DNA from: a virus
Length of the DNA: 64,000 nt
Reading direction: 5' to 3' (one strand)
IMG/VR virus record: IMGVR_UViG_3300042868_011620
Location: 68,552 to 132,551 of that record
The notes under the pieces were generated by a model. It saw only the letters and a program-made list of their open reading frames with translations. It made no database searches and had not been told where the DNA came from. How positions within the stretch are numbered: the stretch's first letter is position 1; the number at the start of each line of letters is the position of its first letter. A program made the translations under genes and the position numbers. Below are positions 6,643 to 21,614 of this stretch, in pieces.

Positions 6643-6648
6643 ATTCCC

Positions 6649-6996: not shown

Positions 6997-7112
6997 TATG
7001 TCAGCCAAAAAAAACAAAATGCCCAACCCGTTCATCTTTCTGCTGGTATACACTTTGTCAGTGGGCAGCATCCTGATGATTCTTATGAAACTCTTTCCTC
7101 GCGGCCTTTAAT

Positions 7113-7642: not shown

Positions 7643-7714
7643 CTCGTTGAATATCAACGAGTTACGAGGCTGCGCCCCGCGTTCGCGTAAGTCGTTGAAT
7701 ATCAACAGGTTACG
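7638..7714. repeat. twin-palindrome element copy 9
   Basis: Dyads start at 7638 and 7686; supplies the TAA stop of the upstream ORF. Confidence 0.9.
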
Positions 7715-7749
7715 AGGATTTAAAAAAGAATTTAAATTCAAAAAAACTC

Positions 7750-7777
7750 TTGCATCTTGCTCGCCCTGCACTATAGT
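7750..7777 (+). promoter_or_regulatory. sigma70-like early promoter
   Basis: TTGCAT-N16-TATAGT; ATG 8 nt downstream. Confidence 0.8.
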
Positions 7778-7785
7778 CTTTTATT

Positions 7786-8067
7786 ATGATTAAACTTGCT
7801 GTACACGATGGAACCCTGCATCTCTATTCTGAAGACTTCAATGGCGACGACCTTGGCGACTTTTTTGGAACTGAAGAATTTGTGGAGCTACTTACTAACG
7901 ATACCTGCGCCAGTGTCACGTATGACAAAGGAGTGTTTGATAAACAGATGTTAGCAGGCATCCTTTACGATTACATCGAATGTGGTTGGATGAAAAATGT
8001 TAGGGAGGTGGAGCTGCCAGATGGTCGCACGTTCCATATTGAATTCAACCTTGAATTCTCTGCGTAA
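7786..8067 (+). CDS. hypothetical acidic protein
   Basis: 93-aa ORF after the promoter. Confidence 0.75.
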   Translation: MIKLAVHDGTLHLYSEDFNGDDLGDFFGTEEFVELLTNDTCASVTYDKGVFDKQMLAGILYDYIECGWMKNVREVELPDGRTFHIEFNLEFSA

Positions 8068-8080
8068 CAAGAGACGCCCT

Positions 8081-8157
8081 TGTAACCCGTTGAATATCAA
8101 CGAGTTACGAGAGCGGGGGGCGCAGCCGCGTAACCCCTTGATTATCAACGAGTTACG
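8081..8157. repeat. twin-palindrome element copy 10
   Basis: Dyads start at 8081 and 8129. Confidence 0.9.
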
Positions 8158-8204
8158 ACTGGCACTGTGCTGGATTTTATGTTAGCATCACTCTTATTAA
8201 GGGG

Positions 8205-8325
8205 TCGCTTATTTGCAACTTTCTCGTTTGCAAGTCTTTATTAAGAGTTCCCTTATTTGCAAGTTTCTCGTTTGCAAGCTCTTATTTGTGTTAGTCTTAT
8301 TTGCAAGTTTCTCGATTGTAAGTGT
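8205..8325 (+). repeat. cluster of TTTGCAA(C/G)T direct repeats
   Basis: About 5-6 copies at the point where gene orientation switches. Confidence 0.7.
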
Positions 8326-8452
8326 CCGATTGATGGCTTTGAACCACCTTCTCCAAAATTACTTGCTCCCTCTAGTTATTCACATTGCGCGTCCGCACGA
8401 AGGGTAATTGTGGCGCTTTAGACCAAAAATAAGCTAATCGGAAATTGTTTTG

Positions 8453-9046
8453 TTAATCATCCCAAGGGCAGATCTGCCATCCTTCCAGTTTGAAGGAGGT
8501 TCCAGTCGGTGGGCTGGAGCGCACCCACTCTTCCATTTTTTCCTTAACATGTTCTGGGATAGAGTCGCAGTCTCCTTGGAAACCCCATTCATCGTAGTTG
8601 TCTCCAGGGGGATGGTCGCTCCATCCTGCCTCATCTTGAATGTAAGTTTCTACCCATGCTCCTTGTTCGTTGCGGATGAGAAAGCCGCGATACTCACGGT
8701 TGTTTTTTTGATCTTCGCGAGCCAAGTCTGCCGCATTGTCCAGAGTGTTTTGAATGTTAATCAAAGTCTCCTCGTCCGTTTCTCCACGACGCGCTAACAA
8801 CTCTGTGGTGCCAGGAGTATCAAAGTCATCAGTGACTGAAACTGCACACACAAACGACTGTCCAGTGCAAATGATGCGCGAAGTGAGAAGTTCTTTCTTG
8901 CAAGCTCCCCAGTCAGTATCAAAAGGCAGTCCAGAAGCGATTGCCTGCATAATTTCCTCGCGTTTATCGTCATAAAAATCGGATGCGCCCCACTTGGTCA
9001 TGTCGCCCTTGTTGAACTGACTAGAGAATTCAAAATCTTCGTTCAT
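8453..9046 (-). CDS. hypothetical acidic protein
   Basis: 197-aa ORF downstream of the SprT-like gene. Confidence 0.75.
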   Translation of the reverse strand: MNEDFEFSSQFNKGDMTKWGASDFYDDKREEIMQAIASGLPFDTDWGACKKELLTSRIICTGQSFVCAVSVTDDFDTPGTTELLARRGETDEETLINIQNTLDNAADLAREDQKNNREYRGFLIRNEQGAWVETYIQDEAGWSDHPPGDNYDEWGFQGDCDSIPEHVKEKMEEWVRSSPPTGTSFKLEGWQICPWDD

Positions 9047-9081
9047 AGCTTTATTGGTGTTGGTGTTTTGTTTTAATGAGA

Positions 9082-9549
9082 TTATGCAGGAATGATCTGG
9101 AGTTTGCCAAGAGTCTCTTTACGCTTGCCAGTAACAAAGCGCAAGCCAACTTCTCTGTGCCACTTGGGCAAGCGGTGATAAGAGCCAAGCTTTTCTCCAC
9201 TCTCAGAGTTGATCATGTAATACTTGGGCTTGACGCGCACTGCCTCGCTAGTCATGTACTGCTTAGGCTCAGCACCAATCTGCACACAGATGTCTCTCCA
9301 GATTTTGCCGTGACCAACCTCGCCATGTTTGAGGTAAGCAAGAGCGTGAGCAATCTCATGCAGGATGGTATCGTGAACTTGAGCAACGCTGTTGCACTCG
9401 GTCAAGACAGAGGAGAGGTGAATTTCTTTGAGCTTGAAATAACAAGTTCCGAACACGCGCTTTTTACGAGTGAACTGGAAAGTCCAATCGGACAAACCAT
9501 AGTGGTTCATGAGATACAAGGCGTGATTTTTGGCAAGTGCTGCGTTCAT
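9082..9549 (-). CDS. SprT-like zinc metalloprotease
   Basis: HDTILHEIAHAL...HGKIW motif; upstream TTGACA-N16-TACTGT promoter. Confidence 0.85.
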   Translation of the reverse strand: MNAALAKNHALYLMNHYGLSDWTFQFTRKKRVFGTCYFKLKEIHLSSVLTECNSVAQVHDTILHEIAHALAYLKHGEVGHGKIWRDICVQIGAEPKQYMTSEAVRVKPKYYMINSESGEKLGSYHRLPKWHREVGLRFVTGKRKETLGKLQIIPA

Positions 9550-9601
9550 GTAGGTACAGTAGCAGAGGAGTTGAGGATGTCAAATAAAAATGACTAAAAA
9601 T

Positions 9602-9676
9602 TGGTGGATCTACTTGGAATCGAACCAAGATTAAAAGCTTAGAAGGCTCTTGTCTTATCCATTAGACGATAGATCC
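9602..9676 (-). tRNA. trnR: tRNA-Arg(UCU)
   Basis: Cloverleaf GGATCTA...CT-TCT-AA...GGTTCGATTCC...ACCA. Confidence 0.9.
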
Positions 9677-9831
9677 AAAGGTTTATTTGCGTTTAAATAC
9701 AGATGGTCTCTGCATAGCAATGATAGTCAAGATGAGAAGATTTACAAGCAGAATATAAGGTTGGTCCATATTATTTTTTGGTTTGGGGCAGAGAGCCACT
9801 ACACTCCCTGCCCCGTTATGTACCACTACTC

Positions 9832-10737
9832 CTACAGACTAGCAAGCACATTCAAGCCCTTGCTAGTAATTTTTCTAGTCACATCAATTCTAATGAAGTT
9901 TTTCTTCAGCAAGAAACTTTCAACATCGCGTTGCAAAGTACTGCGACTCAAACCAGTAACTGCACTAAGCATAGTCAAGGTGCAATCGCCTCTTTCTTTC
10001 AAGATGTTTAACACTTCGATTTCAGAATTGCTCAAACCATTCTTTTCAATGTTCACCAAGCTGCAAAGATCTTCCCAAGAACTAGAGTCAAAGAAACTCT
10101 GATTGTTTTTATTACAGTACCGCAAGATTTCATTTGCTCTGAGAACTGCACTGCGAGCATTGCCCCGAACGCTATCAGCAATGGTTTCGAGAACATCATC
10201 GCGAAACTCTACCCAGGAAGTTGCCACTTTGATGATCTGCGCCATCTCCCCACTACTGTATGGTTTAAAATCAATGATTGTGAATCGATCCTTCAATGGG
10301 GCGAACACTTTCTCTTGATCAGTAGTAGCAAACAAATAAGTTTGTTTGTCAAAGTTGAACTCTGCAATCTCATCATTAAAGCTGAACTCTCTCACTGCTG
10401 GGCCTTGAGTGTTAAACACAGTGAGGAAAGTCATCATTAAACTTTTGGGCAAAGCATGACACTCATCAAACAAAACTGTAACAGCTTTATTCATAATGTG
10501 CGGCACAAAGATTTGCTCGAAGAACTGATTAGAGTCTTTGATGGTGGAACAGTTAATTTCCATCATTGGTTTCTTCAGCGCCTTGGCAAAGCCTCGGCAG
10601 AATTCAGTCTTGCCCGAACCCTTCGCGCCATTCATCATGATGAAAGGAATGCGAGTGTTGGAGGTTTGACTGTCCAGATAAAAACCAAGTTGTCGTTTAA
10701 TGTGATCCTGCCCAATGAGAGAAGAGAAGTTTTCCAT
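9832..10737 (-). CDS. ruvB: RuvB-like AAA+ ATPase
   Basis: LIGQDHIK, Walker A GAKGSGKT, Walker B LFDECH, ATTD, PLKDRF, RGNAR and C-terminal winged-helix-like VESFLL. Confidence 0.75.
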   Translation of the reverse strand: MENFSSLIGQDHIKRQLGFYLDSQTSNTRIPFIMMNGAKGSGKTEFCRGFAKALKKPMMEINCSTIKDSNQFFEQIFVPHIMNKAVTVLFDECHALPKSLMMTFLTVFNTQGPAVREFSFNDEIAEFNFDKQTYLFATTDQEKVFAPLKDRFTIIDFKPYSSGEMAQIIKVATSWVEFRDDVLETIADSVRGNARSAVLRANEILRYCNKNNQSFFDSSSWEDLCSLVNIEKNGLSNSEIEVLNILKERGDCTLTMLSAVTGLSRSTLQRDVESFLLKKNFIRIDVTRKITSKGLNVLASL

Positions 10738-10787
10738 TGTAGTGTAGTGTATAGTGGAAAGGAAGGTAGCCGCACTGCGGAGGGTTG

Positions 10788-11048
10788 TCAAGCGTTTTCT
10801 AGTGGCGCATACTCATCAAAGTTTGTCACGCTAAAAGAAATCTTGCTTTCTGGTTCTTCAGACTCAACAACAGTTTTAACGAGGTTTACTTTTTGTTCAA
10901 TGCTGATGTGATTTTCGCGCAACCACATGGTAGAAACTTTCACCACTGCATTCTCTCCAACCATAGAGATTAAGTCTTGCAGTTTAATTTTGGCAAAGCT
11001 GTTGCTACCAGGAGGACGACCACGACGTTTAGGGGATTCAGTGTTCAT
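10788..11048 (-). CDS. AT-hook-containing small protein
   Basis: PKRRGRPPGS motif near the N-terminus. Confidence 0.7.
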   Translation of the reverse strand: MNTESPKRRGRPPGSNSFAKIKLQDLISMVGENAVVKVSTMWLRENHISIEQKVNLVKTVVESEEPESKISFSVTNFDEYAPLENA

Positions 11049-11227
11049 AGAGTATATATAGTATAGTAGTTTGATGTTTGTCAAGAACAGAGTGTTCGAG
11101 AAGGGAAAGTACAGCATACATGCCGCGAGTCAAGGATTTTTTTCACATTTAAATCTTTTTTTAAAAGCAAGGAGTTTTTTAGTGTAAACTCTTTTTCGGC
11201 GCGAAAAGCTGTGGGTTTGCAGACTTC

Positions 11228-11292
11228 TTTTATTTGACAAAAAGTCGTTCGTAATTAGACCCTGTTTATTTGGCAAAAAGTCGTTCGTAATT
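11228..11292 (+). repeat. direct repeat TTTATTTG(A/G)CAAAAAGTCGTTCGTAATT x2
   Basis: Two near-identical 28-mers; degenerate third copy at about 11414-11441. Confidence 0.75.
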
Positions 11293-11368
11293 TGGTACAT
11301 CATGTCGGACTCGAACCGACACTAGACAGATTTTAAGTCTGTTGCCTCTGCCATTGGGCTAATGATGC
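11293..11368 (-). tRNA. trnL: tRNA-Leu(UAA), short variable loop
   Basis: ACAGA-CT-TAA-AA-TCTGT anticodon arm, GGTTCGAGTCC T-arm, CCA end. Confidence 0.85.
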
Positions 11369-11441
11369 ATAGTGTATACTAAAGAGAGTTCAGCTCTTGT
11401 CAATGGGATTTTGTTTATTTGTCCCACTCTCTTTCGTAATT

Positions 11442-11517
11442 TGGTGGACGCACAGGGGCTCGAACCCTGGACCAAGAAATTATGAGTTTCACGCTCTAAC
11501 CGCTGAGCTATACGTCC
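11442..11517 (-). tRNA. tRNA-CAU (Ile2 or elongator Met)
   Basis: CT-CAT-AA loop, G1-C72 pair (not initiator), CCA end. Confidence 0.85.
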
Positions 11518-11659
11518 AAAGTGCTTAAAAAAGTTCTTGTTCTCTATCCTGCAAGTATTGTGTAGCGTTGAGGACTTGGTTAGTGTTAAAAAATGTTTGG
11601 ATCTTCTTTAGAAGTTTTGCCATACACTATTTTACACTGGGTGGGAGAGTTGTCCACCT

Positions 11660-11866
11660 TTACCATGTGTCATTTTTGACACACTCTATTGCGCCAAACG
11701 TTTCTGGCTCAGTTATTTTTAATTCATAAATTAAATTCTCCATCATTTTAAACGTTTCCATTCTAGTCTCGGCGCATCCTGAAAGCAAGTGCTCATCAAG
11801 CAACTCAAAAATGCGGTGAGTAAAGTTTTTTCCGCCAATTGCGCTGTAGATGTTGTGCTTTTTCAT
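11660..11866 (-). CDS. hypothetical protein
   Basis: 68-aa ORF with upstream TTGACG-N16-TATAGT. Confidence 0.65.
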   Translation of the reverse strand: MKKHNIYSAIGGKNFTHRIFELLDEHLLSGCAETRMETFKMMENLIYELKITEPETFGAIECVKNDTW

Positions 11867-11929
11867 GAGCTTATAATACTATATAGTATATATTACAAGC
11901 GTCAAGGAGTTTTGTGATGTTTTTTCAGG

Positions 11930-12180
11930 TATAGTTGTATTTAGCCTAGAGAAAAAAAACACTTTTGGCTATAAAGTTGTATTTTAGGGGGGTAAAAAGC
12001 ATACAAAACGTACTTTATGGTTCCAAACTGGTACTTTAAAGGCGAAAAGTATATGTTAGAAGCGCTAAGTCTGGCGTGAGATGGGACGAATGTCAGATTA
12101 GTATTAGTTTTTCTTATTTTAGGGGGGTAAAAACAATACTAAACCATTAAAAGTTGTATTTTAGGGGGTAAAAAGTATAC
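11930..12180 (+). repeat. AAAGTTGTATTTTAGGGGG(G)TAAAAAG direct repeats
   Basis: Full copies at about 11972 and 12149, partial copies at about 11933 and 12115, in non-coding DNA. Confidence 0.75.
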
Positions 12181-13831: not shown

Positions 13832-14032
13832 TCAATTTGTTTTTCTAGAATTCCAAGAGTCAAGTGCAGCTTGAAGATTGTGATGCCAAGGACCATTGCA
13901 AGCGCATTCTTCACACTCTACTCTGTATCCTCCTGGATAAGTGTGAAGCGAGATGGCTGGAGTTTCCTCGTCATTGATTTTGTCTTGATCAGTTATCCCG
14001 CAGAATGGACAGTGTTGTAATTTTTGACTCAT
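13832..14032 (-). CDS. Lar-like (restriction alleviation family) Zn-ribbon protein
   Basis: LQHCPFCG...VECEECACNGP...ALDSWNSR. Confidence 0.7.
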   Translation of the reverse strand: MSQKLQHCPFCGITDQDKINDEETPAISLHTYPGGYRVECEECACNGPWHHNLQAALDSWNSRKTN

Positions 14033-14035: not shown

Positions 14036-14236
14036 TTATTCATTTTGTTTAAAGTAATCTATTGTAACATCCTCTACAAAATCGGCTACAGAATAATATA
14101 CAGAATTCCTTACAGAATCATCTACAGAATCCACTACAAAACTCCATGCAGAATTCCATCCAGAAAATTTTATACAAGTATGTATACTATTTCTTAAAGA
14201 ATCCCTTAAATCGTCGATGGCAGTATCATGTATCAT
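14036..14236 (-). CDS. SVxx-repeat array protein
   Basis: Ends IDYFKQNE. Confidence 0.8.
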   Translation of the reverse strand: MIHDTAIDDLRDSLRNSIHTCIKFSGWNSAWSFVVDSVDDSVRNSVYYSVADFVEDVTIDYFKQNE

Positions 14237-14418
14237 TTTGTTTTAAAGTAATCTTTTACAGAACTCCTTACAACATCCCATACAGAATACCTTACAGAAT
14301 CCAATATAGAATCCGATACAGAAGCCTGTACGGAACATCTCACAGGCCAATTTACAGAATAATATAAAGAATTCCTTACAGAACTCAATACGGCTTTATT
14401 AATGCTGGAGTTAATCAT
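14233..14418 (-). CDS. SVxx-repeat array protein
   Basis: Ends KDYFKTK. Confidence 0.8.
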   Translation of the reverse strand: MINSSINKAVLSSVRNSLYYSVNWPVRCSVQASVSDSILDSVRYSVWDVVRSSVKDYFKTK

Positions 14419-14422
14419 TGCT

Positions 14423-14701
14423 TTATTTTATCAGAGTTCGCAATCTATGCAACAAGTATTTTATTGGTGAAATTGGTTTTGGTTCTTCGATTGCTGGACG
14501 AGCTAAGGCATAGCCGCCAATGCGTATCAGCAATAGCATATCATTGTGGTATTCCGCTGGAATGCCCGTAAAATCAAATGTTGCAGTTACTCCATAACCA
14601 TGTGCGGTCACATAGTTTTTTATTTTTAGAATTGGCGGGATGTCCACAGTGAATGATGGATTAGAGTCGTATATCGATATGTTTTCGGCAGTTTCAGTCA
14701 T
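14423..14701 (-). CDS. unrelated hypothetical protein inserted in the array
   Basis: No SVxx repeats; ATGA-coupled to the upstream array unit. Confidence 0.7.
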   Translation of the reverse strand: MTETAENISIYDSNPSFTVDIPPILKIKNYVTAHGYGVTATFDFTGIPAEYHNDMLLLIRIGGYALARPAIEEPKPISPIKYLLHRLRTLIK

Positions 14702-14886
14702 AATTTTTGTTTAAAGTAATCATTTACAGAAGCTTTTACAGAATCCGATACAGAATTCTTTACAGAATTCTTTACAGAATTATATACAAAAATCCTTACG
14801 GTCTCCCTCGCAGCTTTCATTACAGAATGCCATACAGCTTTCCTTACAGAATCCCATACAGCTTGACTAACGATAGAATCATTCAT
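14698..14886 (-). CDS. SVxx-repeat array protein
   Basis: SVKNSVKNSVSDSVKASVNDYFKQKL. Confidence 0.8.
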   Translation of the reverse strand: MNDSIVSQAVWDSVRKAVWHSVMKAARETVRIFVYNSVKNSVKNSVSDSVKASVNDYFKQKL

Positions 14887-15091
14887 TTTGTTTAAAGTAA
14901 TCTCTTATAGAGTCTCTTACAGTAGCTTTTATAAAATCGTTTACAGCGCTCTCTACAGAACGTACTACAGAATTATATACAGGACACCGTACAAACCCCT
15001 CTATATAATGCCATGCAGAGTCCCTTGCAGAATTTTCTACAGAATCCATTACAGACTCCAATGTATTTTCATAAACGATAGAATAATTCAT
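14879..15091 (-). CDS. SVxx-repeat array protein
   Basis: Ends RDYFKQNE. Confidence 0.8.
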   Translation of the reverse strand: MNYSIVYENTLESVMDSVENSARDSAWHYIEGFVRCPVYNSVVRSVESAVNDFIKATVRDSIRDYFKQNE

Positions 15092-15159
15092 CACTTTATT
15101 TTATCAGAGTTCGTTTGAAGTAATTTTTTATCATTTTTAATTACTGAGTAGGATTGTAT

Positions 15160-15414
15160 CTATAGTAGCTCAAGGTCTTGTGTTGTCAAGGAGTTTTGTT
15201 CAAAGTAATCTCTTGCAGAACCCCACACATCATGCCTTAGAGAGGTCTCTACATCTTCCTCTATACAATCCCATCCAAAGTCCCATACAGATCTGTCTAT
15301 GATCCTTGCAGAACGTACTATAGAATTATATACAGATTCTCCTATAGCATCATAGGCAAATTTCCATACGTAATCATCGATATTAAAATTTTTAGTGTTG
15401 TTTTTATTATTCAT
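15160..15414 (-). CDS. SVxx-repeat array protein
   Basis: RDYFEQN with a short C-terminal extension. Confidence 0.8.
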   Translation of the reverse strand: MNNKNNTKNFNIDDYVWKFAYDAIGESVYNSIVRSARIIDRSVWDFGWDCIEEDVETSLRHDVWGSARDYFEQNSLTTQDLELL

Positions 15415-15598
15415 TTTGTTTAAAGTGATCTACTACAAAATCATATACAGAATCTTTTATATTAGTCCAAACAGGATCTCCTACAGCACTCCTTGCATGA
15501 ATCCTCGCAGGCAGCTGTATATTCTCTTTTATACAATTCCACACAGAAGCTTCTACATGATCATTCTTTATAGAGCACCAATATCTTATACTATTCAT
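15407..15598 (-). CDS. SVxx-repeat array protein
   Basis: Ends DHFKQNE. Confidence 0.8.
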   Translation of the reverse strand: MNSIRYWCSIKNDHVEASVWNCIKENIQLPARIHARSAVGDPVWTNIKDSVYDFVVDHFKQNE

Positions 15599-15824
15599 TT
15601 TTTAAGCGTTTTTGTTTGAAGTACTCTACTGTAGTGTCTCTTACAGAACTCTCTACAGACCTTCCTATAGTTCGCCATACAGAATGCTCTACAGGATGCT
15701 CTACAGAATAGCTGACAGCATCCGCTATAGCATCCTCTACATAATCCTTTATCCCATCGTTTACAGAATTTCCTACAGAATGATATATAGAATACCACAC
15801 GGCAATGCTTGTATTATTATTCAT
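15591..15824 (-). CDS. SVxx-repeat array protein
   Basis: Ends EYFKQKRLKNE. Confidence 0.8.
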   Translation of the reverse strand: MNNNTSIAVWYSIYHSVGNSVNDGIKDYVEDAIADAVSYSVEHPVEHSVWRTIGRSVESSVRDTTVEYFKQKRLKNE

Positions 15825-16005
15825 TTTGTTTAAAGTAATCTATTGTAGAATCTATCACATAAATCTCTACCCAATTTACGACAGAAAACTTTGTAATATT
15901 CCATGCAGAAAGTACTATAGGGCCTCTTACAGAACTCCATATAGAACACCATGCAGAATCTTCTACAGAAATCCACGCAGCTTTATAAACAGAGAAGTTA
16001 TTCAT
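15817..16005 (-). CDS. SVxx-repeat array protein
   Basis: MNNFSV...IDYFKQNE. Confidence 0.8.
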   Translation of the reverse strand: MNNFSVYKAAWISVEDSAWCSIWSSVRGPIVLSAWNITKFSVVNWVEIYVIDSTIDYFKQNE

Positions 16006-16012
16006 TGCTTTA

Positions 16013-16228
16013 TTAATTTTCAAAGTAATCTCTTGCAGTACCGCTTGCAGCATCCCTTATTGAAACCTTTACGGAATTACCAATAACAATCCATATAGAC
16101 TCATGTACAGAAACTCTTGCAGGATTTGTTACAAAATCGAATACAGACCTCCATACTAATCTTCTTACAGAATATGTAATGCTATAACCTATATCATCTT
16201 TTATAATATGCATTACTTTATTGTTCAT
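16013..16228 (-). CDS. SVxx-repeat array protein
   Basis: MNNKV...RDYFEN. Confidence 0.8.
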   Translation of the reverse strand: MNNKVMHIIKDDIGYSITYSVRRLVWRSVFDFVTNPARVSVHESIWIVIGNSVKVSIRDAASGTARDYFEN

Positions 16229-16427
16229 TTTGTTTGAAGTAATCTCTCGTAGCATTTGCTATATCAAACCATACAGAAGCTCTTGCTTTAAAATCTCTTC
16301 CAGTAGTAAATCTTACAGTATAACTAGTAGAATTAAACAAAGAGTCCCACATAGAAGCTCTAAAACTATTCCATATCGAAATTTCTACAGAATCCTGTAC
16401 TTTTTTAGTGATAAAAAAATCATTCAT
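16218..16427 (-). CDS. SVxx-repeat array protein
   Basis: MNDFF...RDYFKQNEQ. Confidence 0.8.
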   Translation of the reverse strand: MNDFFITKKVQDSVEISIWNSFRASMWDSLFNSTSYTVRFTTGRDFKARASVWFDIANATRDYFKQNEQ

Positions 16428-16654
16428 TGGTTTATCCAATTTTGATTGAAGTAATTAATTGTACAGTTTGCTATAGGAATCTCTATAGACGGTTTTACCG
16501 TGTCCCACACAGCGTTCCTGATGTATTGACCAGCACCATTCCATACTCCATCTCCTACAGATTCTTCTATAGTATCCACTATAGGATATGCCAAGGAATC
16601 AGATATTAATTTTGACGGACAATATCTCACATTCTCTCTTATAGTTTTATTCAT
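16424..16654 (-). CDS. SVxx-repeat array protein
   Basis: Ends INYFNQNWINQ. Confidence 0.8.
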   Translation of the reverse strand: MNKTIRENVRYCPSKLISDSLAYPIVDTIEESVGDGVWNGAGQYIRNAVWDTVKPSIEIPIANCTINYFNQNWINQ

Positions 16655-16844
16655 TTTTAAAGTAATCTTTAGTAGCCTCTCTTGTAAAATCCTGCATAAG
16701 AGAACCTATAGGGTCTTCCGAACCGTGTCCAATAGGATAAATTACAGTGAGCAACACACATACATGTACAACCTCTTCTACAGCGTGCCACACTTTAACT
16801 CTTAAACTTCGTTCTACAGTTTCGCTAATGGTAGAATCATTCAT
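16647..16844 (-). CDS. SVxx-repeat array protein
   Basis: Ends KDYFKNE. Confidence 0.8.
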   Translation of the reverse strand: MNDSTISETVERSLRVKVWHAVEEVVHVCVLLTVIYPIGHGSEDPIGSLMQDFTREATKDYFKNE

Positions 16845-17049
16845 TTTGTTTAAAGCAATCTCTTGCAGAGTCTCTTACAGCCTTAAATACAGAATTAATT
16901 ATTACGCTTCTTGTGCAATTATATACAGGCTTGTTTACAGAAACTCCTACAGCCCTCCATATAGGATTTTGTATAGAACTTCTTATAGAACTCTCTACAG
17001 GAACTCTACAGAGATCATTCACAGCTTTATAAATAGTAGAATGATTCAT
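16837..17049 (-). CDS. SVxx-repeat array protein
   Basis: Ends RDCFKQNE. Confidence 0.8.
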   Translation of the reverse strand: MNHSTIYKAVNDLCRVPVESSIRSSIQNPIWRAVGVSVNKPVYNCTRSVIINSVFKAVRDSARDCFKQNE

Positions 17050-17249
17050 TGTTTAAAGTAATTTTTTGCAGAACGATGTATAAAAATTGTAAAATGCTCT
17101 GTACAATTCTGCGTAAAACTACGCCACGCTGATTGTACAGCATCATTTCGCACAGAAGTAAACAAACAATGTCTCAGTGGTTTCCATATGTCGCTAATTA
17201 CAGCTTGCTGCACAGAATCTCTTACAGAGGCTTTGATATTAGTATTCAT
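17046..17249 (-). CDS. SVxx-repeat array protein
   Basis: MNTNIK...KNYFKQ. Confidence 0.8.
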   Translation of the reverse strand: MNTNIKASVRDSVQQAVISDIWKPLRHCLFTSVRNDAVQSAWRSFTQNCTEHFTIFIHRSAKNYFKQ

Positions 17250-17451
17250 TTTTAAAGTAATCACTGGCGGCATCCTCCACTGCAAAACCGATTGAACTCC
17301 ATGAAACATACCTCATGGATTCTCTCACCACAGCTCTAACATCTCCCCATACTTGATTCCATATAGAATATGTTATAAAATTTCTTGCAACCTCGCCCGT
17401 GCATTCTCGCACATTTTTTTGAACAGCTTGGTTAATAGTGGATTTGTTCAT
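17239..17451 (-). CDS. SVxx-repeat array protein
   Basis: Ends SDYFKNEY. Confidence 0.8.
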   Translation of the reverse strand: MNKSTINQAVQKNVRECTGEVARNFITYSIWNQVWGDVRAVVRESMRYVSWSSIGFAVEDAASDYFKNEY

Positions 17452-17672
17452 TTTTGTTTAAAGTAATCTAGCGCAGCATCATCTATATCAGACCATACAT
17501 CATCTATTACTAAACTCCTTACACGATCTATTGTCCAATCTCTTAGATTGCCCCGCACAGAAGTTCTAATGTATCTCCATGTAGGTTGTCTTAGTTCCCC
17601 TAGCTTATATCCAGAATTTAATATTGAATTTGCAACATAAATAGTTTTAGGTTCACTTATTCTATTATTCAT
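17448..17672 (-). CDS. SVxx-repeat array protein
   Basis: Ends LDYFKQK. Confidence 0.8.
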   Translation of the reverse strand: MNNRISEPKTIYVANSILNSGYKLGELRQPTWRYIRTSVRGNLRDWTIDRVRSLVIDDVWSDIDDAALDYFKQK

Positions 17673-17890
17673 TTTTGTTTAAAGTAATTAAAAAGAGAAT
17701 CCTCTATAAAATTCTCTATCTCCATTAGCGTAACAACTGTGGGAGAGGCCACTATAAGTACTCTACAAGATTCTGCAACAGAATTCTTTACAAAACGATG
17801 AACAATATCCTCTATGGAACCCCACATTAAACTTCCCGCAGCAATTCTTGTGGAGTATTTAATGCTGCCTGATGATATTTTATTTTTCAT
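17669..17890 (-). CDS. SVxx-repeat array protein
   Basis: Ends FNYFKQK. Confidence 0.8.
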   Translation of the reverse strand: MKNKISSGSIKYSTRIAAGSLMWGSIEDIVHRFVKNSVAESCRVLIVASPTVVTLMEIENFIEDSLFNYFKQK

Positions 17891-18098
17891 TTTTAAAAAA
17901 ATCTTCTACAGAGTATTCTATCGAAAGATTTGCATAAGTTCCTATAGTAGTCCATACAGGGAACCTTACAGAATTCCATACAGATTCTCTTAGAGTAAAA
18001 TGTGTACACTCTACTACAGAGCTATATACAGCATAACCTACGCGCCTTGTAACTATACCAGCAGTAGAGTGCTGCGTTGCAATAATAATATCACTCAT
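17880..18098 (-). CDS. SVxx-repeat array protein
   Basis: Ends EDFFKNEK. Confidence 0.8.
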   Translation of the reverse strand: MSDIIIATQHSTAGIVTRRVGYAVYSSVVECTHFTLRESVWNSVRFPVWTTIGTYANLSIEYSVEDFFKNEK

Positions 18099-18355
18099 TT
18101 TTTTGTTTTAAAATAATTAATTGATGCGCTCTCTATAATTGTTTGAATGGGGCGATTCAAGCCATCATCTATTAAACCACGAACTGATGAATGCCACACA
18201 TTATACTTAACAGAATCGTGAACAATGTCCTCTACGGGACGCAATGTACAACGATGAACACAAAAGTAAACAGAAAAATAAACACAATTCCAAACAGATT
18301 TTCTAGTCGATTTATTAGTGGGAACGTTTAGGGATTTTAATGATTTTTTATTCAT
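18095..18355 (-). CDS. SVxx-repeat array protein
   Basis: Ends INYFKTKK. Confidence 0.8.
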   Translation of the reverse strand: MNKKSLKSLNVPTNKSTRKSVWNCVYFSVYFCVHRCTLRPVEDIVHDSVKYNVWHSSVRGLIDDGLNRPIQTIIESASINYFKTKK

Positions 18356-18579
18356 TGTTTAAAATAATTATGAATTTCCTCGCTTACACAATTACTTGTG
18401 GAATCTCTTACAGAGCGCCCTATAGAATAAAAAACATTAATCCTTAAAAAATCCCTCATAAAACTTGATGAAACTTCCAATACCAGTTCATCCACAGTCT
18501 TCTCTACATTATCCCATACAGCATAATATGCTGAATCTACTGCGCGAATCACTACATCTTCATCGGTTTTATCGTTCAT
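18352..18579 (-). CDS. SVxx-repeat array protein
   Basis: Ends HNYFKQ. Confidence 0.8.
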   Translation of the reverse strand: MNDKTDEDVVIRAVDSAYYAVWDNVEKTVDELVLEVSSSFMRDFLRINVFYSIGRSVRDSTSNCVSEEIHNYFKQ

Positions 18580-18811
18580 TTTGTTTAAAGTAATCTTTTA
18601 CATGAGGATTGATGGGAAGCTCTATAGAACTCCATACAGAATCCCAATAAGATTTTCTTTCGGAAATTCTTATAGAATCGAGTATAGATTCCCTTAGAGA
18701 GTAACCCGCAGAGTTGCATACAGAATGGTAAACAACTCTTTGAGCAGAATTCCACATAGCGTGCTCTACACAATCCCACACAATTCCAGCAATAGCAGAG
18801 TCGTCTTTCAT
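18569..18811 (-). CDS. SVxx-repeat array protein
   Basis: Ends KDYFKQNER. Confidence 0.8.
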   Translation of the reverse strand: MKDDSAIAGIVWDCVEHAMWNSAQRVVYHSVCNSAGYSLRESILDSIRISERKSYWDSVWSSIELPINPHVKDYFKQNER

Positions 18812-19005
18812 TTTGTTTTAAAGTAATCCTCTACAGATCGCTATACAGGAATATATACAGAAATATTTACAGAAATCTTTACAGAACCTAATATAGAACC
18901 TAATACAGAACCCCTTACAGAACTCCATATCGAATCCCATACAGGACTCCTTAAAGAATCAAATACAGACTTCGTCACATATTCATAAAGGGTAGAGTCA
19001 TTCAT
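18808..19005 (-). pseudogene. SVxx-repeat array unit with in-frame TAG
   Basis: MNDSTLYEY...SVYIPV*RSVEDYFKTK*; TAG at 18841-18843. Confidence 0.75.
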
Positions 19006-19204
19006 TTTGTTTAAAGTAATCGTAAGAGGCTTGACTAATGCAATTTTTTATAATTTGTTCTGAATGCCAAGTGCTGTCCCATACTGGATGCCATACAGAA
19101 GTTGATACTCTATTAACAACACATTTCCATACAGGATTATCTACTGATTTTGTCATAGACATTTGTATAGAAAAAGTAGTCGTGTCACTTAATTTATCAA
19201 TCAT
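18998..19204 (-). CDS. SVxx-repeat array protein
   Basis: Ends YDYFKQNE. Confidence 0.8.
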   Translation of the reverse strand: MIDKLSDTTTFSIQMSMTKSVDNPVWKCVVNRVSTSVWHPVWDSTWHSEQIIKNCISQASYDYFKQNE

Positions 19205-19394
19205 TTTGTTTAAAGTAATCTTGTGTACACTGCATCGCAGTATTTCGCGCAGAATGAATCGTGCGATTCTGTATGTAATGCCCGACAGTATTCCATAGAT
19301 GAATCTTTATAGAACGCCAAACAATTCTTTGAACAGGATTTTGCGAAGAACCCCATAAAATATTTCGTGTAGTTTTGTTTATTTCGTCAGTCAT
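19197..19394 (-). CDS. SVxx-repeat array protein
   Basis: MTDEINK...QDYFKQND. Confidence 0.8.
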   Translation of the reverse strand: MTDEINKTTRNILWGSSQNPVQRIVWRSIKIHLWNTVGHYIQNRTIHSARNTAMQCTQDYFKQND

Positions 19395-19845
19395 TTTTAA
19401 AGTAATCAATTACAGAATCATTTACAGGCCGCTTTATACGAGTCTGCACATAAAACACCACAGGATTTTCTACACCGTTCCATACTTCAAACCTTACAGA
19501 AAAATCCATAGAATCCCAGAAAGAATAATCTATCAATGTCTTTAGACAATCCACTGTCTTTATAGAATCCACCGTTGACTGGTTCATTCCATATTTTATT
19601 TTATTTGTTTTTATTTTATTTGTTTCAAAGTAATCTTCTATAGAAGCTTTTATAGGTATCCATGGTATACCTCTTATATCGTAAAGAGAACAAATGGACC
19701 CATACGCAGGATCTCCCACTGCATCTTCATTTTCCACATATTCTGTTATAATATCCTCGACAGAGTTCCATACGCAATCTCTTGCGAAAGCACATGAATA
19801 GTTTTCGATAGAAAATTCTATAAGTTTATTTAATTTATCGTTCAT
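19387..19845 (-). CDS. in-frame fusion of two SVxx-repeat array units
   Basis: MNDKL...EDYFET-NKIKTNKIKYG-MNQST...IDYFKND. Confidence 0.75.
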   Translation of the reverse strand: MNDKLNKLIEFSIENYSCAFARDCVWNSVEDIITEYVENEDAVGDPAYGSICSLYDIRGIPWIPIKASIEDYFETNKIKTNKIKYGMNQSTVDSIKTVDCLKTLIDYSFWDSMDFSVRFEVWNGVENPVVFYVQTRIKRPVNDSVIDYFKND

Positions 19846-20053
19846 TTTTTTGTTCAAAGTAATCAACAACAGCATCTCCCGCACTATACAACACTTTAAG
19901 ACTTGCGGATTCTCCTGCGTAAAAATCCCATACAAAATTTCTCGCAGAATATGCTACAGACTGAGTGATGGCTTTCCAAGCGGGATAATCTCTACCAGCA
20001 TCTGTTACTGAATACCAAACGTCACGGTCTACGTATTTATTAATTGTATTCAT
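19835..20053 (-). CDS. SVxx-repeat array protein
   Basis: Ends VDYFEQKNER. Confidence 0.8.
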   Translation of the reverse strand: MNTINKYVDRDVWYSVTDAGRDYPAWKAITQSVAYSARNFVWDFYAGESASLKVLYSAGDAVVDYFEQKNER

Positions 20054-20232
20054 TTTTGTTTGAAGTAGTCAACGACAGAAGCTTGTACAGGATTACTCAC
20101 AGTGCGACTGATGGATATGGAAATATCATCCCATGTAGCATAATCTACATACTTCCATATGATATAACCTACATTCTTCCAAACAGTAAACTTCGCAGAA
20201 TTTAAAATTTTTCTCACATCGCCGATATTCAT
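20050..20232 (-). CDS. SVxx-repeat array protein (first unit)
   Basis: Ends VDYFKQK. Confidence 0.8.
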   Translation of the reverse strand: MNIGDVRKILNSAKFTVWKNVGYIIWKYVDYATWDDISISISRTVSNPVQASVVDYFKQK

Positions 20233-20242: not shown

Positions 20243-20280
20243 AAAAAAGGCCCCCTGAAGTTTGATGTCTTCAGAGGGCC
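20243..20280 (-). terminator. intrinsic terminator between the DUF6745-like pair and the array
   Basis: Minus strand GGCCCTCTGAAG-loop-CTTCAGGGGGCC followed by T6. Confidence 0.8.
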
Positions 20281-20293: not shown

Positions 20294-20632
20294 TTAATCT
20301 GCCACGTTGCGTTTGGCTTGAGCAATGTAATCGTATTCTTGTTGAATGCCAATTACATAAGTGCCAGGCACAATGTCAATGGTAGTGTGACGCTCCGACA
20401 TGACGCAGCTAATGTCAGTTGCTACAGTGCTGTTCATGTAGCGCTTGCCAGTCTTCTTAGAGTTCCAGAAGGTGACTCCAGGCTTATTAGCAATAACGTG
20501 ATGGTTGCCAGTAACTTCGCTGTTGGCGACAATCACTACTTTACTAGTGTGATTCTCAGCAATAGCGTCATCAGGCAAGCCTGCGCACTGAGCCACAATG
20601 CATTCGCCGTGAAGGATGATTTTCTTTTTCAT
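20294..20632 (-). CDS. conserved partner of DUF6745-like proteins (His-rich beta protein)
   Basis: HGE...SEVTGNHH...ERH...IVPGTY...QQEYD...RNVAD pattern. Confidence 0.7.
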   Translation of the reverse strand: MKKKIILHGECIVAQCAGLPDDAIAENHTSKVVIVANSEVTGNHHVIANKPGVTFWNSKKTGKRYMNSTVATDISCVMSERHTTIDIVPGTYVIGIQQEYDYIAQAKRNVAD

Positions 20633-20654: not shown

Positions 20655-21614
20655 TTAAGCGATACCAACGATTTCATGATCCGAGAGATCAATGTCTCCG
20701 AGACGCTCAGCAATTGCTTGCTGAAGGTTCTTACACTCTGGAGAGACACTTTCGACATGCCACACTCCAACAGTTTGATTGAGCATCTTCAGGTGAGGAG
20801 CATAATCAATGCCTGGGTACAAAGCGGCCATGTCCCAGAGTTCATACTCACTCTTAGTCCACCACTCTTCAGTAGGATAGTTTTCGTAAGAGTCAATCTT
20901 CTTGCCGAAAGAAAGCATTCTTTCAACTCCGAATTTGCGAACAAACTCCATTTTGTGGTCTGCATTGTCCAGAGTATTGTACTGATCAAGAGTGAGTTCA
21001 TTGCTTGGAGTAACTGCCAACCACTCAGGAACTCTCGTTCCGTTGAGGATGAAGATGCTGTTCAATCCGTAACCATTGTAAGCAATGGCTGGACCACCGT
21101 CACAGTGAGTCACATTGTCTTCGTTGAGGTGAATCACAGTAGGCTTTTGACTCACTACCACAGCAGTGGGCATAGGATAAATCTGTCCCAGTTTGTGAGT
21201 AGCGTGCCAAATCTCGTAGCACTCATTAGCCTCTTTGAAGTCGATGCCGACTTCGTCGCGGAAGAAGTCGTAGAAGCTCCAGACATTCGCATCGAACGAT
21301 CCGTTGAGGTAGGGAGTGGTGTAAGTTTCGATTGCCATTTTAACACCTTGAACAAAGTATTCTTCAAGCTTTGATGGAATGTCTGCTGCTTCTACTCCAG
21401 CTTTCAAGTAGTGACAAGCTACCCATGCTTCCACAGGATTGTTCACAATGATTACTGGAGTAGGCTCAACCTTGAGCAAGTGAGTTTGCACTTTGTGAAT
21501 GATGCTCACAGTCTCATCATAGTCGAGACGATCAGTATTAATGCCAATCTTCAGCCACTTCTCAGTGTACTCAGACATTTTGGCAGTTTGTTCGGGAGTG
21601 AGGGATTCGATCAT
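20655..21614 (-). CDS. DUF6745-like protein
   Basis: MIESLTPEQ...EKWLKIG N-terminus, WSFYDFF, HCDGGPAIAY...NGTRVP...NADHK. Confidence 0.7.
   Translation of the reverse strand: MIESLTPEQTAKMSEYTEKWLKIGINTDRLDYDETVSIIHKVQTHLLKVEPTPVIIVNNPVEAWVACHYLKAGVEAADIPSKLEEYFVQGVKMAIETYTTPYLNGSFDANVWSFYDFFRDEVGIDFKEANECYEIWHATHKLGQIYPMPTAVVVSQKPTVIHLNEDNVTHCDGGPAIAYNGYGLNSIFILNGTRVPEWLAVTPSNELTLDQYNTLDNADHKMEFVRKFGVERMLSFGKKIDSYENYPTEEWWTKSEYELWDMAALYPGIDYAPHLKMLNQTVGVWHVESVSPECKNLQQAIAERLGDIDLSDHEIVGIA

What the first reader, a model, noticed from the sequence alone, without database searches (positions are those of the whole stretch)
14036..20232. Array of 28 diversified tetrapeptide-repeat mini-genes joined by a conserved 22-bp junction
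Seen: 6.2 kb of head-to-tail 60-90-codon units on the minus strand. Each carries 4-residue S-V-(W/R/Y/E)-(N/D/S) periodicity and ends in (D/N)YFK(Q/N/T). The DNA junction GATTACTTTAAACAAAATGAAT encodes that end and contains the next ATG, so most units are translationally coupled. Interiors are highly divergent, yet 27 of 28 frames are intact, which suggests selection for many different proteins rather than decay. Inference: an expandable library of variant small proteins on one scaffold (decoys, anti-defence or host-interaction specificity modules), with the junction possibly seeding recombination that adds or removes units. I do not recognise this as a described system.
Basis: partly seen in the sequence, partly recalled or inferred. 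Interest (0 to 1): 0.9.

Follow-up and report, generated by a model that had tools for sequence, protein, structure and literature searches.

The report
Detached DUF6745 repeat mini-gene array
A large uncultured lake-water phage carries 27 tiny overlapping genes, each a separate and very different copy of a four-amino-acid repeat that related, unstudied proteins (DUF6745) carry internally; the phage's own DUF6745 protein next door lacks that repeat and is predicted to bind them.

Summary
On the minus strand, 14036-20232 carries 27 small genes (28 repeat modules; one in-frame TAG, one two-module fusion) with V/I-x-(D/N)-S periodicity, a (D/N)YFK end and 4/8/11-nt overlaps. The sense frame has 1 stop in 1975 codons; the other five frames have 55-224.

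It is not an orphan. A profile of the units best matches 400-570 aa DUF6745 (PF20530) proteins that carry the same tract between an N-terminal and a C-terminal domain. The gene just upstream (20655-21614) is a DUF6745 homologue without a tract, followed by a conserved 112-aa partner.

Related phages carry arrays of 11-32 units. The flanks are collinear; the arrays are shuffled. Matched units give dN/dS of about 0.8 against 0.02-0.15 in the flanks, yet frames stay open and Ser/Trp are conserved. Metagenome contigs show allelic patches confined to single units. Two near-identical relatives differ by 12- and 36-nt in-frame repeat changes.

A complex prediction places unit 1 on the core at the tract's insertion site (0.80, best control 0.00).

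Best reading: detached, exchangeable tract modules that dock in trans on one core. Function is unknown; counter-defence is suggested only by analogy with Tweety gp54.

This scan found such arrays before on other phage DNA. My literature searches found no description in print.

The parts
20655..21614 (-). Tract-less DUF6745-like core protein (319 aa)
   Evidence: PF20530 E 8.4e-6, 25.7 bits against a cut-off of 27. Many of the 120 listed homologues carry precomputed PF20530. BLASTP to the tract-bearing P0125 gives E 5e-37 from residue 113 on. AF2 pLDDT 92.7. No PDB fold match.
20294..20632 (-). Conserved 112-aa partner gene (all-beta, invariant His/Glu/Cys residues)
   Evidence: 85 homologues, none with a Pfam family. 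Invariant H8 G9 E10 S38 E39 T41 G42 N43 H44 H45 C76 R81 H82 Q98 E99. AF2 pLDDT 89.6. No fold match. dN/dS 0.02-0.10.
20249..20280 (-). Terminator-like hairpin (12-bp stem, 8 G-C pairs, T run) between the partner gene and unit 1
   Evidence: A similar hairpin is present in L003; none was found in L006.
20050..20232 (-). Unit 1 (60 aa). The only unit that aligns as part of the collinear flank in relatives; it was the partner in the complex prediction.
19835..20053 (-). Unit 2 (72 aa)
19387..19845 (-). Units 3+4 fused into one 152-aa frame (two profile domains)
19197..19394 (-). Unit 5 (65 aa)
18998..19204 (-). Unit 6 (68 aa); 87% identical counterpart in L006
18808..19005 (-). Unit 7 with an in-frame TAG 10 codons before its DYFKTK end
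18569..18811 (-). Unit 8 (80 aa); carries a unit-confined allelic patch in metagenome contigs
18352..18579 (-). Unit 9 (75 aa)
18095..18355 (-). Unit 10 (86 aa)
17880..18098 (-). Unit 11 (72 aa)
17669..17890 (-). Unit 12 (73 aa)
17448..17672 (-). Unit 13 (74 aa); counterpart in L006
17239..17451 (-). Unit 14 (70 aa)
17046..17249 (-). Unit 15 (67 aa)
16837..17049 (-). Unit 16 (70 aa). 23 listed substitutions and two compensating 1-nt indels lie inside this unit in metagenome contigs.
16647..16844 (-). Unit 17 (65 aa)
16424..16654 (-). Unit 18 (76 aa); counterpart in L006
16218..16427 (-). Unit 19 (69 aa); counterpart in L006
16013..16228 (-). Unit 20 (71 aa)
15817..16005 (-). Unit 21 (62 aa)
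15591..15824 (-). Unit 22 (77 aa); counterpart in L006
15407..15598 (-). Unit 23 (63 aa; DHFK variant of the end motif)
15160..15414 (-). Unit 24 (84 aa; extended C-terminal tail); counterpart in L006
15092..15159 (-). 68-nt gap holding a 12-codon remnant that carries only the NYFK end motif
   Evidence: motif at 15125. A promoter-like TTGACA-16-TACTAT lies just upstream at 15189-15162.
14879..15091 (-). Unit 25 (70 aa); 89% identical counterpart in L006
14698..14886 (-). Unit 26 (62 aa). The ESM Atlas holds it; its model's nearest structures include ATP synthase subunit b and HisKA families.
14423..14701 (-). Unrelated 92-aa gene inserted in the array; overlaps unit 26 by 4 nt
   Evidence: No unit-profile hit. 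No hit in Pfam, PHROGs, PADLOC or NCBIfam.
14233..14418 (-). Unit 27 (61 aa)
14036..14236 (-). Unit 28 (66 aa), last of the array
13832..14032 (-). Lar-type restriction-alleviation gene directly downstream (context, not part of the repeat family)
   Evidence: PF14354, 31.4 bits against a cut-off of 28.6.

Best explanation
The array is a family of 27 free-standing genes. Each encodes a diversified copy of the central tetrapeptide-repeat tract that DUF6745 proteins normally carry in cis between their N- and C-terminal domains.

In this phage lineage the DUF6745 core gene has lost, or never had, the tract. The tract exists instead as many separate 60-86 aa, probably helical, mini-proteins. They are translated as a chain through 4/8/11-nt stop-start overlaps.

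I propose that each mini-protein docks in trans onto the one core protein, at the groove where the tract is inserted in fused relatives. It would do so mainly through its conserved C-terminal ...(P)V..SV.DYF end. The phage would then make many alternative core-plus-tract complexes from one core.

The variable helix surface would set what each complex recognises. By analogy only, with mycobacteriophage Tweety gp54, the target may be a host or prophage defence component.

The array evolves by in-frame 12-nt slippage inside units and by replacement of single units.

Shown: the anatomy, the homology to the tract, the tract-less neighbour, conservation of the arrangement, open-frame maintenance, fast amino-acid change, and allelic patches confined to single units.

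Inferred: translation, binding (in silico only) and biological role.
For: (1) Homology. The unit profile finds 1518 proteins at E<=1e-3. The top hits are 400-570 aa proteins with several tract matches. Of the 10 hits scanned, 7 carry PF20530. Of the 137 hits longer than 130 aa among the best 150, 79 carry the N- or C-domain of the window's core by local HMMs.

(2) The core lacks the tract. P0125 aligns to core residues 113-318 at E 5e-37 but carries about 200 residues of SVxx repeats before that point.

(3) The arrangement is conserved. L003/L004, L005 and L006 (cores 88-92% identical) have core, partner, then array with 27, 12 and 32 unit ORFs. L008 (50% identical) has 11 units 3.3 kb from its core and a second cluster elsewhere in its record.

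(4) Selection for open frames. There is 1 stop in 1975 sense codons against 55-224 in the other frames. Of all possible point mutations in the units, 4.5% would create a stop. The 14 matched unit pairs differ by about 570 substitutions, so about 26 stops would be expected without selection.

(5) Residue-specific constraint. In 7 window-L006 unit pairs, Ser is kept at 49 of 54 sites and Trp at 17 of 20, against 180 of 264 for other residues.

(6) Fast, cassette-like evolution. Pooled dN/dS for units is 0.80, against 0.02-0.15 for the flanking genes. Flanks are collinear at 78-81% identity, while array matches are patchy and out of order. In metagenome contigs, 35 of the 40 listed differences lie in two single units. 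L003 and L004 differ over 10 kb by 1 substitution plus 12-nt and 36-nt in-frame deletions inside units.

(7) Docking. Complex prediction of core plus unit 1 scored 0.80, with the best of 3 controls at 0.00. That mark was reached by 58 of 80 solved complexes and 2 of 110 mismatched pairs. The runs agree in at least 69% of contacts and the partner's pLDDT is at least 59. Contacts fall on core residues 60-71 and 95-118, which flank the tract insertion site, and on unit residues 36-57.

(8) Predicted interface residues are 97% identical in the three array-bearing close relatives, against 86-90% for the rest of the protein. In L010, whose record has no unit match, they are 33% identical against 50%.
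Against: No evidence of transcription or translation was obtained.

A strong terminator-like hairpin sits between the core/partner pair and unit 1, in the window and in L003. The array may therefore not be co-expressed with the core.

No Shine-Dalgarno-like sequence precedes the unit starts.

dN/dS near 1 is also what relaxed constraint would give.

The complex score used my own alignments. It may also reflect the model's knowledge of fused single-chain relatives rather than real trans binding. Only unit 1, the most conserved and least typical unit, was tested.

Tract-less cores exist in records with no unit match (G008 and G009, 40% and 52% complete). L008's arrays are not adjacent to its core.

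The interface-conservation contrast rests on one array-less genome.

The function of DUF6745 itself is unknown. Neither the core nor the partner matches a solved fold.
Confidence: 0.5

Rival explanations
1. The mini-proteins act on their own, not with the phage's core. They would be decoys or competitive inhibitors that mimic the tract of DUF6745 proteins encoded by the host, its prophages or competing phages. A diverse set would cover many targets.
For: Tract-bearing DUF6745 proteins occur in bacterial assemblies. One Phycisphaerae MAG has three in tandem, and hits come from cyanobacterial and other MAGs. The terminator-like hairpin separates the array from the core operon. L008's arrays lie away from its core. 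A Lar-type restriction-alleviation gene follows the array.
Against: Core-partner-array adjacency holds in the four closest relatives, L003, L004, L005 and L006. The complex prediction favours docking on the phage's own core. Nothing is known of a host DUF6745 function that could be inhibited, and the host is unknown.
Confidence: 0.17
2. The array is a largely neutral by-product of slippage and tandem duplication. Frames would be kept open only because uninterrupted, coupled translation of this 6-kb stretch is needed to avoid polarity on downstream genes (Lar and others). The peptides themselves would have little function.
For: dN/dS is about 0.8. Population differences are 29 non-synonymous to 11 synonymous. 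Unit number varies widely between relatives, from 1 to 32. Overlap coupling holds at 23 of 26 junctions (coordinates). One unit carries a TAG without apparent consequence.
Against: Ser and Trp are conserved well above other residues. The V/I-x-D/N-S pattern is kept even in units that share only about 22% identity. The same tract is conserved inside thousands of proteins from distant taxa. The window's units have no close within-array duplicates: 0 of 27 have a partner at 60% identity or more, so they are old yet intact. Two junctions with gaps of 7 and 68 nt, and the TAG, show that strict coupling is not essential.
Confidence: 0.15
3. The units are precursor peptides of a RiPP-like pathway. 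A conserved recognition end (DYFKQ) would be bound by the DUF6745 core, and the 112-aa His/Glu/Cys-rich partner would modify the variable repeat, for example at Ser. This would resemble multi-precursor systems such as prochlorosins (recalled, not searched).
For: There are many diversified short peptides with conserved termini next to two conserved proteins. The partner has invariant H, E, H, H, C, H residues that suggest a metal site. Ser is the best-conserved residue. The unit's conserved end is predicted to dock on the core.
Against: Neither the core nor the partner hits a known RiPP enzyme family or any Pfam enzyme family. Neither has a fold match. In most relatives the tract is fused inside the DUF6745 protein, which is not how RiPP precursors are usually arranged. 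No protease or exporter was identified among the neighbours scanned.
Confidence: 0.08
4. The array is the decayed remnant of one very long repeat protein, or of a giant DUF6745 tract, now broken into pseudo-ORFs.
For: The units are homologous to a tract that is continuous in other proteins. The frames rotate from unit to unit.
Against: Every unit has its own ATG in a conserved MN context, and 27 of the 28 modules close with their own stop after the conserved end motif (the exception is the first half of the fusion). There is only 1 internal stop in 1975 codons. The same gene-by-gene organisation, with a different lineage-specific end motif (MTLKDSV...KSHDT), occurs in L008. Short stand-alone homologues are called as proteins in other assemblies: 13 of the best 150 hits.
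Confidence: 0.02

Closest known systems
DUF6745 (Pfam PF20530) proteins with an internal SV-x-x tetrapeptide tract
   Same: The repeat is the same: V/I, then a variable residue, then D/N, then S. The unit profile's best hits are the tracts of these proteins. The window's neighbouring gene shares their N- and C-terminal domains.
   Different: Here the tract is not inside the protein. It is split off as 27 separate genes with their own starts, stops and a lineage-specific (D/N)YFK end, while the core has no tract. The function of DUF6745 is unknown, and no paper in the searched library names it.
Mycobacteriophage Tweety gp54 (with Che8 gp57 and PMC gp51)
   Same: It is a non-essential phage protein with a long tetrapeptide repeat between unique N- and C-terminal regions, and repeat number differs between related phages (PMC2884959, passages). 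Escape mutants with more or fewer repeats overcome the Phrann gp29/gp30 defence (PMC9262239, passage). The relatives L003 and L004 likewise differ by 1 and 3 tetrapeptides.
   Different: The repeat is A-A-x-x in GC-rich DNA and lies within one gene. There is no sequence relationship: no PF20530 hit at E<=0.1, and hhalign probability against the core profile is 0.1%. There is no array of detached units.
Multi-precursor RiPP loci (e.g. prochlorosin-type; recalled, not searched)
   Same: Many short, diversified peptides with conserved ends are encoded near one or two conserved proteins.
   Different: No known maturase family is present. The conserved part is mostly C-terminal. The homologous tract is normally part of a large protein.
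Pentapeptide-repeat proteins (Pfam PF00805; recalled)
   Same: Short-period repeat proteins, some used as mimics in defence or counter-defence.
   Different: The period here is 4, not 5. There is no Pfam hit at E<=1 for the 10 proteins scanned, 9 of them units. The Atlas model's nearest structures include helical families, not a beta-helix.

Membership tests
DUF6745 (PF20530): core gene 20655-21614 | Match to the Pfam model at or above the gathering score | tested here: inconclusive
   25.7 bits against a cut-off of 27, E 8.4e-6. Orthologues at 95% and 88% identity (P0001, P0002) carry precomputed PF20530. The C-domain aligns to P0125 at E 5e-37, and P0125 itself scores 27.4 bits for PF20530.
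DUF6745 (PF20530): core gene | Usual architecture: N-domain, SV-x-x tract, C-domain | tested here: not met
   The window protein has both domains but no tract. It is 319 aa, against 400-570 aa for the tract-bearing hits.
DUF6745 internal tract: the array units | Sequence homology of the units to the tract | tested here: met
   The profile search gives 1518 hits. Of the 10 hits scanned, 7 carry PF20530. Of 137 long hits, 79 carry the core's N- or C-domain.
DUF6745 internal tract: the array units | Tract lies inside a DUF6745 polypeptide | tested here: not met
   The units are separate genes with their own ATG and stop.
Tweety gp54-type tetrapeptide-repeat counter-defence protein | Sequence relationship to gp54 | tested here: not met
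   No Pfam family for gp54. hhalign probability 0.1% against the core profile.
Tweety gp54-type tetrapeptide-repeat counter-defence protein | Repeat number varies between close strains, in frame | tested here: met
   L003 and L004 differ by 12-nt and 36-nt deletions inside units, with 1 substitution in 10 kb. This was seen in relatives, not in the window's own population contigs.
Tweety gp54-type tetrapeptide-repeat counter-defence protein | Counter-defence activity tuned by the repeat | not testable with these tools
   Needs a host, a defence system and escape-mutant genetics.
RiPP precursor array | A known maturase or recognition family adjacent | tested here: not met
   Apart from the core's DUF6745 match, neither the core nor the partner has a Pfam or NCBIfam family, and neither has a PADLOC family. 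Neighbours are ThyX, a phosphoesterase, SNase and Lar.
Pentapeptide repeat (PF00805) | Pfam match | tested here: not met
   No hit at E<=1 for the 10 proteins scanned, 9 of them units.
Diversity-generating retroelement target | Reverse transcriptase plus template repeat nearby | not tested
   I did not scan the window for a reverse transcriptase. The variation is not confined to adenine-coded positions.

The most novel reading that the evidence does not exclude
One invariant DUF6745 core plus partner enzyme is served by a genome-encoded library of dozens of exchangeable, rapidly diversifying helical 'insert' proteins. Each would snap into the same groove, giving the phage a combinatorial repertoire of recognition complexes: a split-protein specificity library. 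Its cassettes would be swapped between phages one unit at a time and resized by 12-nt slippage.
Probability: 0.3. Interest if true: 0.88.

Novelty: new variant of a known kind. Interest (0 to 1): 0.72.

Why it matters
DUF6745 proteins and their tetrapeptide tract are very common in phage and bacterial sequence data (1518 representative clusters hit by the unit profile). Yet no paper in the searched library names the family.

This locus separates the variable tract from the conserved domains. That makes the question 'what does the tract do, and does it act through the core?' directly testable with small, easily synthesised proteins.

If the units dock in trans, this would be a natural split-protein library. 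It would also be a new way for a phage to carry many specificities at low coding cost.

If the analogy with Tweety gp54 holds, the arrays would be a widespread counter-defence repertoire.

Even the conservative result is a useful case for studying how short genes evolve: 27 old, highly diverged, intact mini-genes with dN/dS near 1, and allelic patches confined to single units.

Tried and rejected
Searches that gave no useful match:
- Pfam and PHROGs gave nothing for the units: all hits were below cut-off. PADLOC and NCBIfam gave only compositional hits to SD-repeat adhesins and similar.
- There was no match in the phage collection, either for the array DNA (megablast) or for the core protein (tblastn).
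- No solved-structure relative by sequence was found for the core or the units.
- Fold searches found nothing convincing. For the core, best Foldseek E was 0.43 and best VIA Z was 4.1. For the partner, best E was 0.19 and best Z was 3.6. This shows only that no match was found.
- The genome-contig scan with the core profile returned only 4 loci, because few patterns were usable. It says little about distribution.
- The exact 21-mer junction occurs in only 2 viral contigs, one of which is L006's. The other, L022/G010, has no unit-profile match.

Sequencing runs:
- No RNA holder was listed, so expression could not be addressed.
- Seven joints were listed in the contig layout. All have a short side of 42 letters or fewer, and most occur in one run, so I do not count them as evidence of unit gain or loss. 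They include one that would skip 165 nt at unit 1 and one that would skip 1029 nt.

Ideas considered and dropped:
- Promoter-like sites are not enriched in the region: 33 found against 34.8 expected.
- I considered that the unit's DYFK end derives from the 'FYDYF' start of the C-domain or from the core's own 'EEYF'. In fused relatives the tract mostly ends '...SVYGQHDA.WL.FYDYF'. The idea stays unresolved.
- I considered alternative genetic codes for the single TAG. I dropped this because the large genes of the window are open under table 11.
- Supplementary tables of the Tweety paper were not available to me.

Full report
**What is there.** The window is part of a large tailed phage. It has 10 tRNA genes. 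It encodes tail proteins of the minor-tail and J-like families. It also encodes ThyX, a phosphoesterase, an SNase-type nuclease, a RuvB-like ATPase, UvdE and a CHAP lysin. The DNA occurs almost letter for letter in many lake-water metagenomes: 20 of the 24 listed runs hold half or more of the sampled words.

Between 20232 and 14036 the minus strand carries 27 small genes:
- Twenty-six are 60-86 aa. One is a 152-aa fusion of two modules, so there are 28 modules.
- One unit (19005-18808) has an in-frame TAG.
- An unrelated 92-aa gene (14701-14423) sits inside the array.
- A 12-codon remnant carrying only the end motif lies in a 68-nt gap near 15125.

From the coordinates, 23 of 26 successive unit pairs overlap by 4, 8 or 11 nt. 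The starts sit in an A-rich context with no Shine-Dalgarno-like sequence. It is therefore the commonest junction form, not a universal one.

**More than chance.** The units share about 22% identity but keep a four-residue rhythm. V/I power at period 4 is 29.0, against 4.3 +/- 0.9 in shuffles. The phases are V/I, then R/W/K/E, then D/N, then S.

The sense frame has 1 stop in 1975 codons and 26 of 27 genes are open. The other five frames have 55-224 stops and at most 5 of 27 open. Repeat composition therefore lowers the stop density in one antisense frame but does not explain the sense frame. Of all possible point mutations in the units, 4.5% would create a stop.

**What it is related to.** Pfam, PHROGs, PADLOC and NCBIfam do not name the units. 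A profile of the 27 unit sequences, searched against 1.84 billion representative proteins, finds 1518 proteins at E<=1e-3 and 10 at E<=1e-30.

The best hits are proteins of 400-570 aa with several matched stretches. Their sequences show an N-terminal domain, a long SV(W/R/G)(D/A/N) tract and a C-terminal domain. Of the 10 hits scanned, 7 carry DUF6745, PF20530.

Among the best 150 hits, 13 are 130 aa or shorter, that is, stand-alone mini-proteins. Some end in DYFKQ like the window's. Of the 137 longer hits, 79 carry the N- or C-domain of the window's own neighbouring protein by local HMMs (67 C, 60 N, 48 both). This is a lower bound, because P0124 has PF20530 by Pfam but was missed locally.

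That neighbouring gene (20655-21614, 319 aa) scores 25.7 bits for PF20530 against a cut-off of 27. Many of its 120 listed homologues carry PF20530. It aligns from residue 113 to its end with the tract-bearing P0125 at E 5e-37. It has no tract.

It is followed by a conserved 112-aa gene with no family. That gene has 85 homologues. At least nine of them share 'longest contig' lengths with core homologues, which suggests that the pair travels together. Its invariant residues are H8 G9 E10 S38 E39 T41 G42 N43 H44 H45 C76 R81 H82 Q98 E99.

Both proteins fold confidently in silico, with pLDDT 92.7 and 89.6. Neither matches a solved fold in the libraries searched.

**Relatives.** Nine viral loci encode a relative of the core. 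L002 is a near-identical record (98% identical core) that ends at the array's edge.
- The four other close relatives have core, partner, then array. L003 and its near-twin L004 have 27 unit ORFs, L005 has 12 and L006 has 32.
- L008 (core 50% identical) has 11 units 3.3 kb from its core and a second cluster elsewhere in its record: 22 matches in all. Its units start MTLKDSV and end KSHDT, so the terminal motifs are lineage-specific.
- L007 has one unit next to its core.
- The records of L009 and L010 have none, but they are only 40% and 52% complete.

Window against relatives: the flanks are collinear at 78-81% nucleotide identity, and this includes unit 1. The rest of the array matches only in patches and out of order.

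In the window, no unit has a within-array relative at 60% identity or more (0 of 27), while 10 of 27 have such a counterpart in another genome. In L003 and L008, 19 of 27 and 11 of 11 units have close within-array duplicates. The window's array is therefore an old, fully diversified set rather than a recent expansion.

**Mode of evolution.** For 14 matched unit pairs (at least 55% identity over at least 45 codons), Nei-Gojobori dN/dS ranges from 0.42 to 4.1. Pooled, it is 0.80 (dN 0.238, dS 0.297; about 430 non-synonymous and 140 synonymous differences). For comparison, the core gives 0.07, the partner 0.02-0.10 and the downstream 163-aa gene 0.15, with dS of 0.6 to above 2.

The pairs were selected for similarity. 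That selection explains why their dS is lower than in the flanks.

All 7 window-L006 pairs align from near the start to the end motif, with in-frame gaps only. In them Ser is conserved at 49 of 54 sites and Trp at 17 of 20, against 62 of 91 for V/I, 57 of 83 for D/N and 180 of 264 for the rest.

In contigs of four lake-water runs the unit order is the same as in the window:
- 35 of the 40 listed differences lie inside two single units: 23 in 17049-16837 and 12 in 18811-18569. Another 71 differences were not shown.
- In X7, the records that flank the array had 0 or 1 other letters.
- Scored singly, the 40 differences are 29 non-synonymous and 11 synonymous.
- Two 1-nt indels 10 nt apart in the first patch compensate each other.
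- A 1-nt A-run change at the 16843 junction, by my reading of the sequence, would switch the upstream unit's end from ...KQNE* with an 8-nt overlap to ...KQK* with a 4-nt overlap. Both forms are used elsewhere in the array.

L003 and L004 differ over 10 kb by one substitution and by 12-nt and 36-nt deletions inside two units.

Together these results point to in-frame slippage of whole tetrapeptides, and to allelic divergence or exchange confined to single units.

**How it may work.** A complex prediction of the core with unit 1 scored 0.80, with the best of 3 controls at 0.00. That mark was reached by 58 of 80 solved complexes and 2 of 110 mismatched pairs. The runs agree in at least 69% of contacts and the partner's pLDDT is at least 59.

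The confident contacts lie on core residues 60-71 and 95-118. These flank the place where fused relatives carry the tract. On the unit, the contacts lie on residues 36-57, the conserved ...PV..SVVDYF end.

This supports binding but does not show it. I used my own alignments, and the model may be recalling the single-chain relatives.

The predicted interface residues are 97% identical in L003, L005 and L006, against 86-90% elsewhere in the protein. In L010, whose record has no unit match, they are 33% identical against 50%. That contrast rests on one genome.

The ESM Atlas holds unit 14886-14698 (pLDDT 0.79). Its structural neighbours include ATP synthase subunit b, HisKA and tape-measure families, and several all-viral clusters of unnamed proteins of 65-78 aa. 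From the families named I read the unit as a long helix. Its feature neighbours are all-viral clusters of 58-187 members.

My best reading is that the units are detached tract modules that dock in trans on one core. The variable surface would set what each complex recognises.

Points against this reading:
- A strong terminator-like hairpin lies between the partner gene and unit 1, in the window and in L003 but not in L006.
- There are no expression data.
- dN/dS is near 1.
- Some tract-less cores lie in records without arrays.

**Comparison with what is known.** No paper in the searched library contains 'DUF6745'. None contains four typical tract strings in a relevant context; the one hit is an unrelated tardigrade paper.

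The nearest studied analogue is mycobacteriophage Tweety gp54. It is a non-essential protein with 48 A-A-x-x repeats between unique ends, and Che8 and PMC have 26 and 15 repeats (PMC2884959, passages read). Defence-escape mutants that gain or lose repeats overcome Phrann gp29/gp30 (PMC9262239, passage read). I did not read the primary 2017 paper.

I fetched gp54. It has no PF20530 hit and no profile similarity to the core (hhalign probability 0.1%). It is therefore an analogue, not a relative.

**Earlier notes of this scan.** Another first-stage note on this same genome gave me the DUF6745 lead, and I tested it. Follow-up reports on at least five other phage genomes describe detached DUF6745 repeat mini-gene arrays, and one points to Tweety gp54. 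The arrangement has therefore been seen before by this scan on other DNA, but not in print according to my searches.

**Verdict.** The thing is a new variant of a known but unstudied kind.

I put the identification as detached DUF6745 tract genes at about 0.9, trans docking on the core at about 0.5, and a counter-defence role at about 0.3.

Noticed in passing
window 13832-14032 (-): A Lar-type restriction-alleviation gene (PF14354, 31.4 bits against a cut-off of 28.6) directly follows the last unit, 3 nt after its stop.
   Followed up: partly
window 20294-20632 (-): The 112-aa partner of the DUF6745 core has a confident all-beta model with no fold match. Its invariant H, E, H, H, C, H residues suggest a metal site, so it may be a small enzyme of a new family.
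   Followed up: partly
window 26461-32201 (-): Three large tandem open frames (520, 645 and 655 aa) share phrog_22899 and phrog_3649. The two scanned with Pfam (520 and 645 aa) carry multiple DUF285 repeats. This is a second gene family expanded in tandem in the same window.
   Followed up: no
window 14423-14701 (-): An unrelated 92-aa gene with no family sits inside the array. It overlaps unit 26 by 4 nt (ATGA) and ends 4 nt before the start of unit 27.
   Followed up: partly
window 20238 / L001, L002 (G001): The nearest held viral record (36.3 kb) ends exactly at the upstream edge of the array. Contigs in the metagenome runs also break at unit junctions, so assemblies tend to break at this array and may under-report such arrays.
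   Followed up: partly
G003:C316:41740-45312 (L015, L019, L020): A Phycisphaerae MAG carries three tandem DUF6745 genes (open frames of 558, 397 and 522 aa). The family therefore also forms tandem paralogue clusters in bacterial assemblies.
   Followed up: no
window 16843 junction: A 1-nt A-run length change at a unit junction is seen in three of the four runs. By my reading it would switch the upstream unit's end between ...KQNE* (8-nt overlap) and ...KQK* (4-nt overlap), so the junction would tolerate slippage without losing the overlap.
   Followed up: partly
window 1-12000: G+C content is higher here (0.40-0.49) than in the array (0.34). Other first-stage notes report 77-bp twin-palindrome elements in this part. 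I did not examine it.
   Followed up: no
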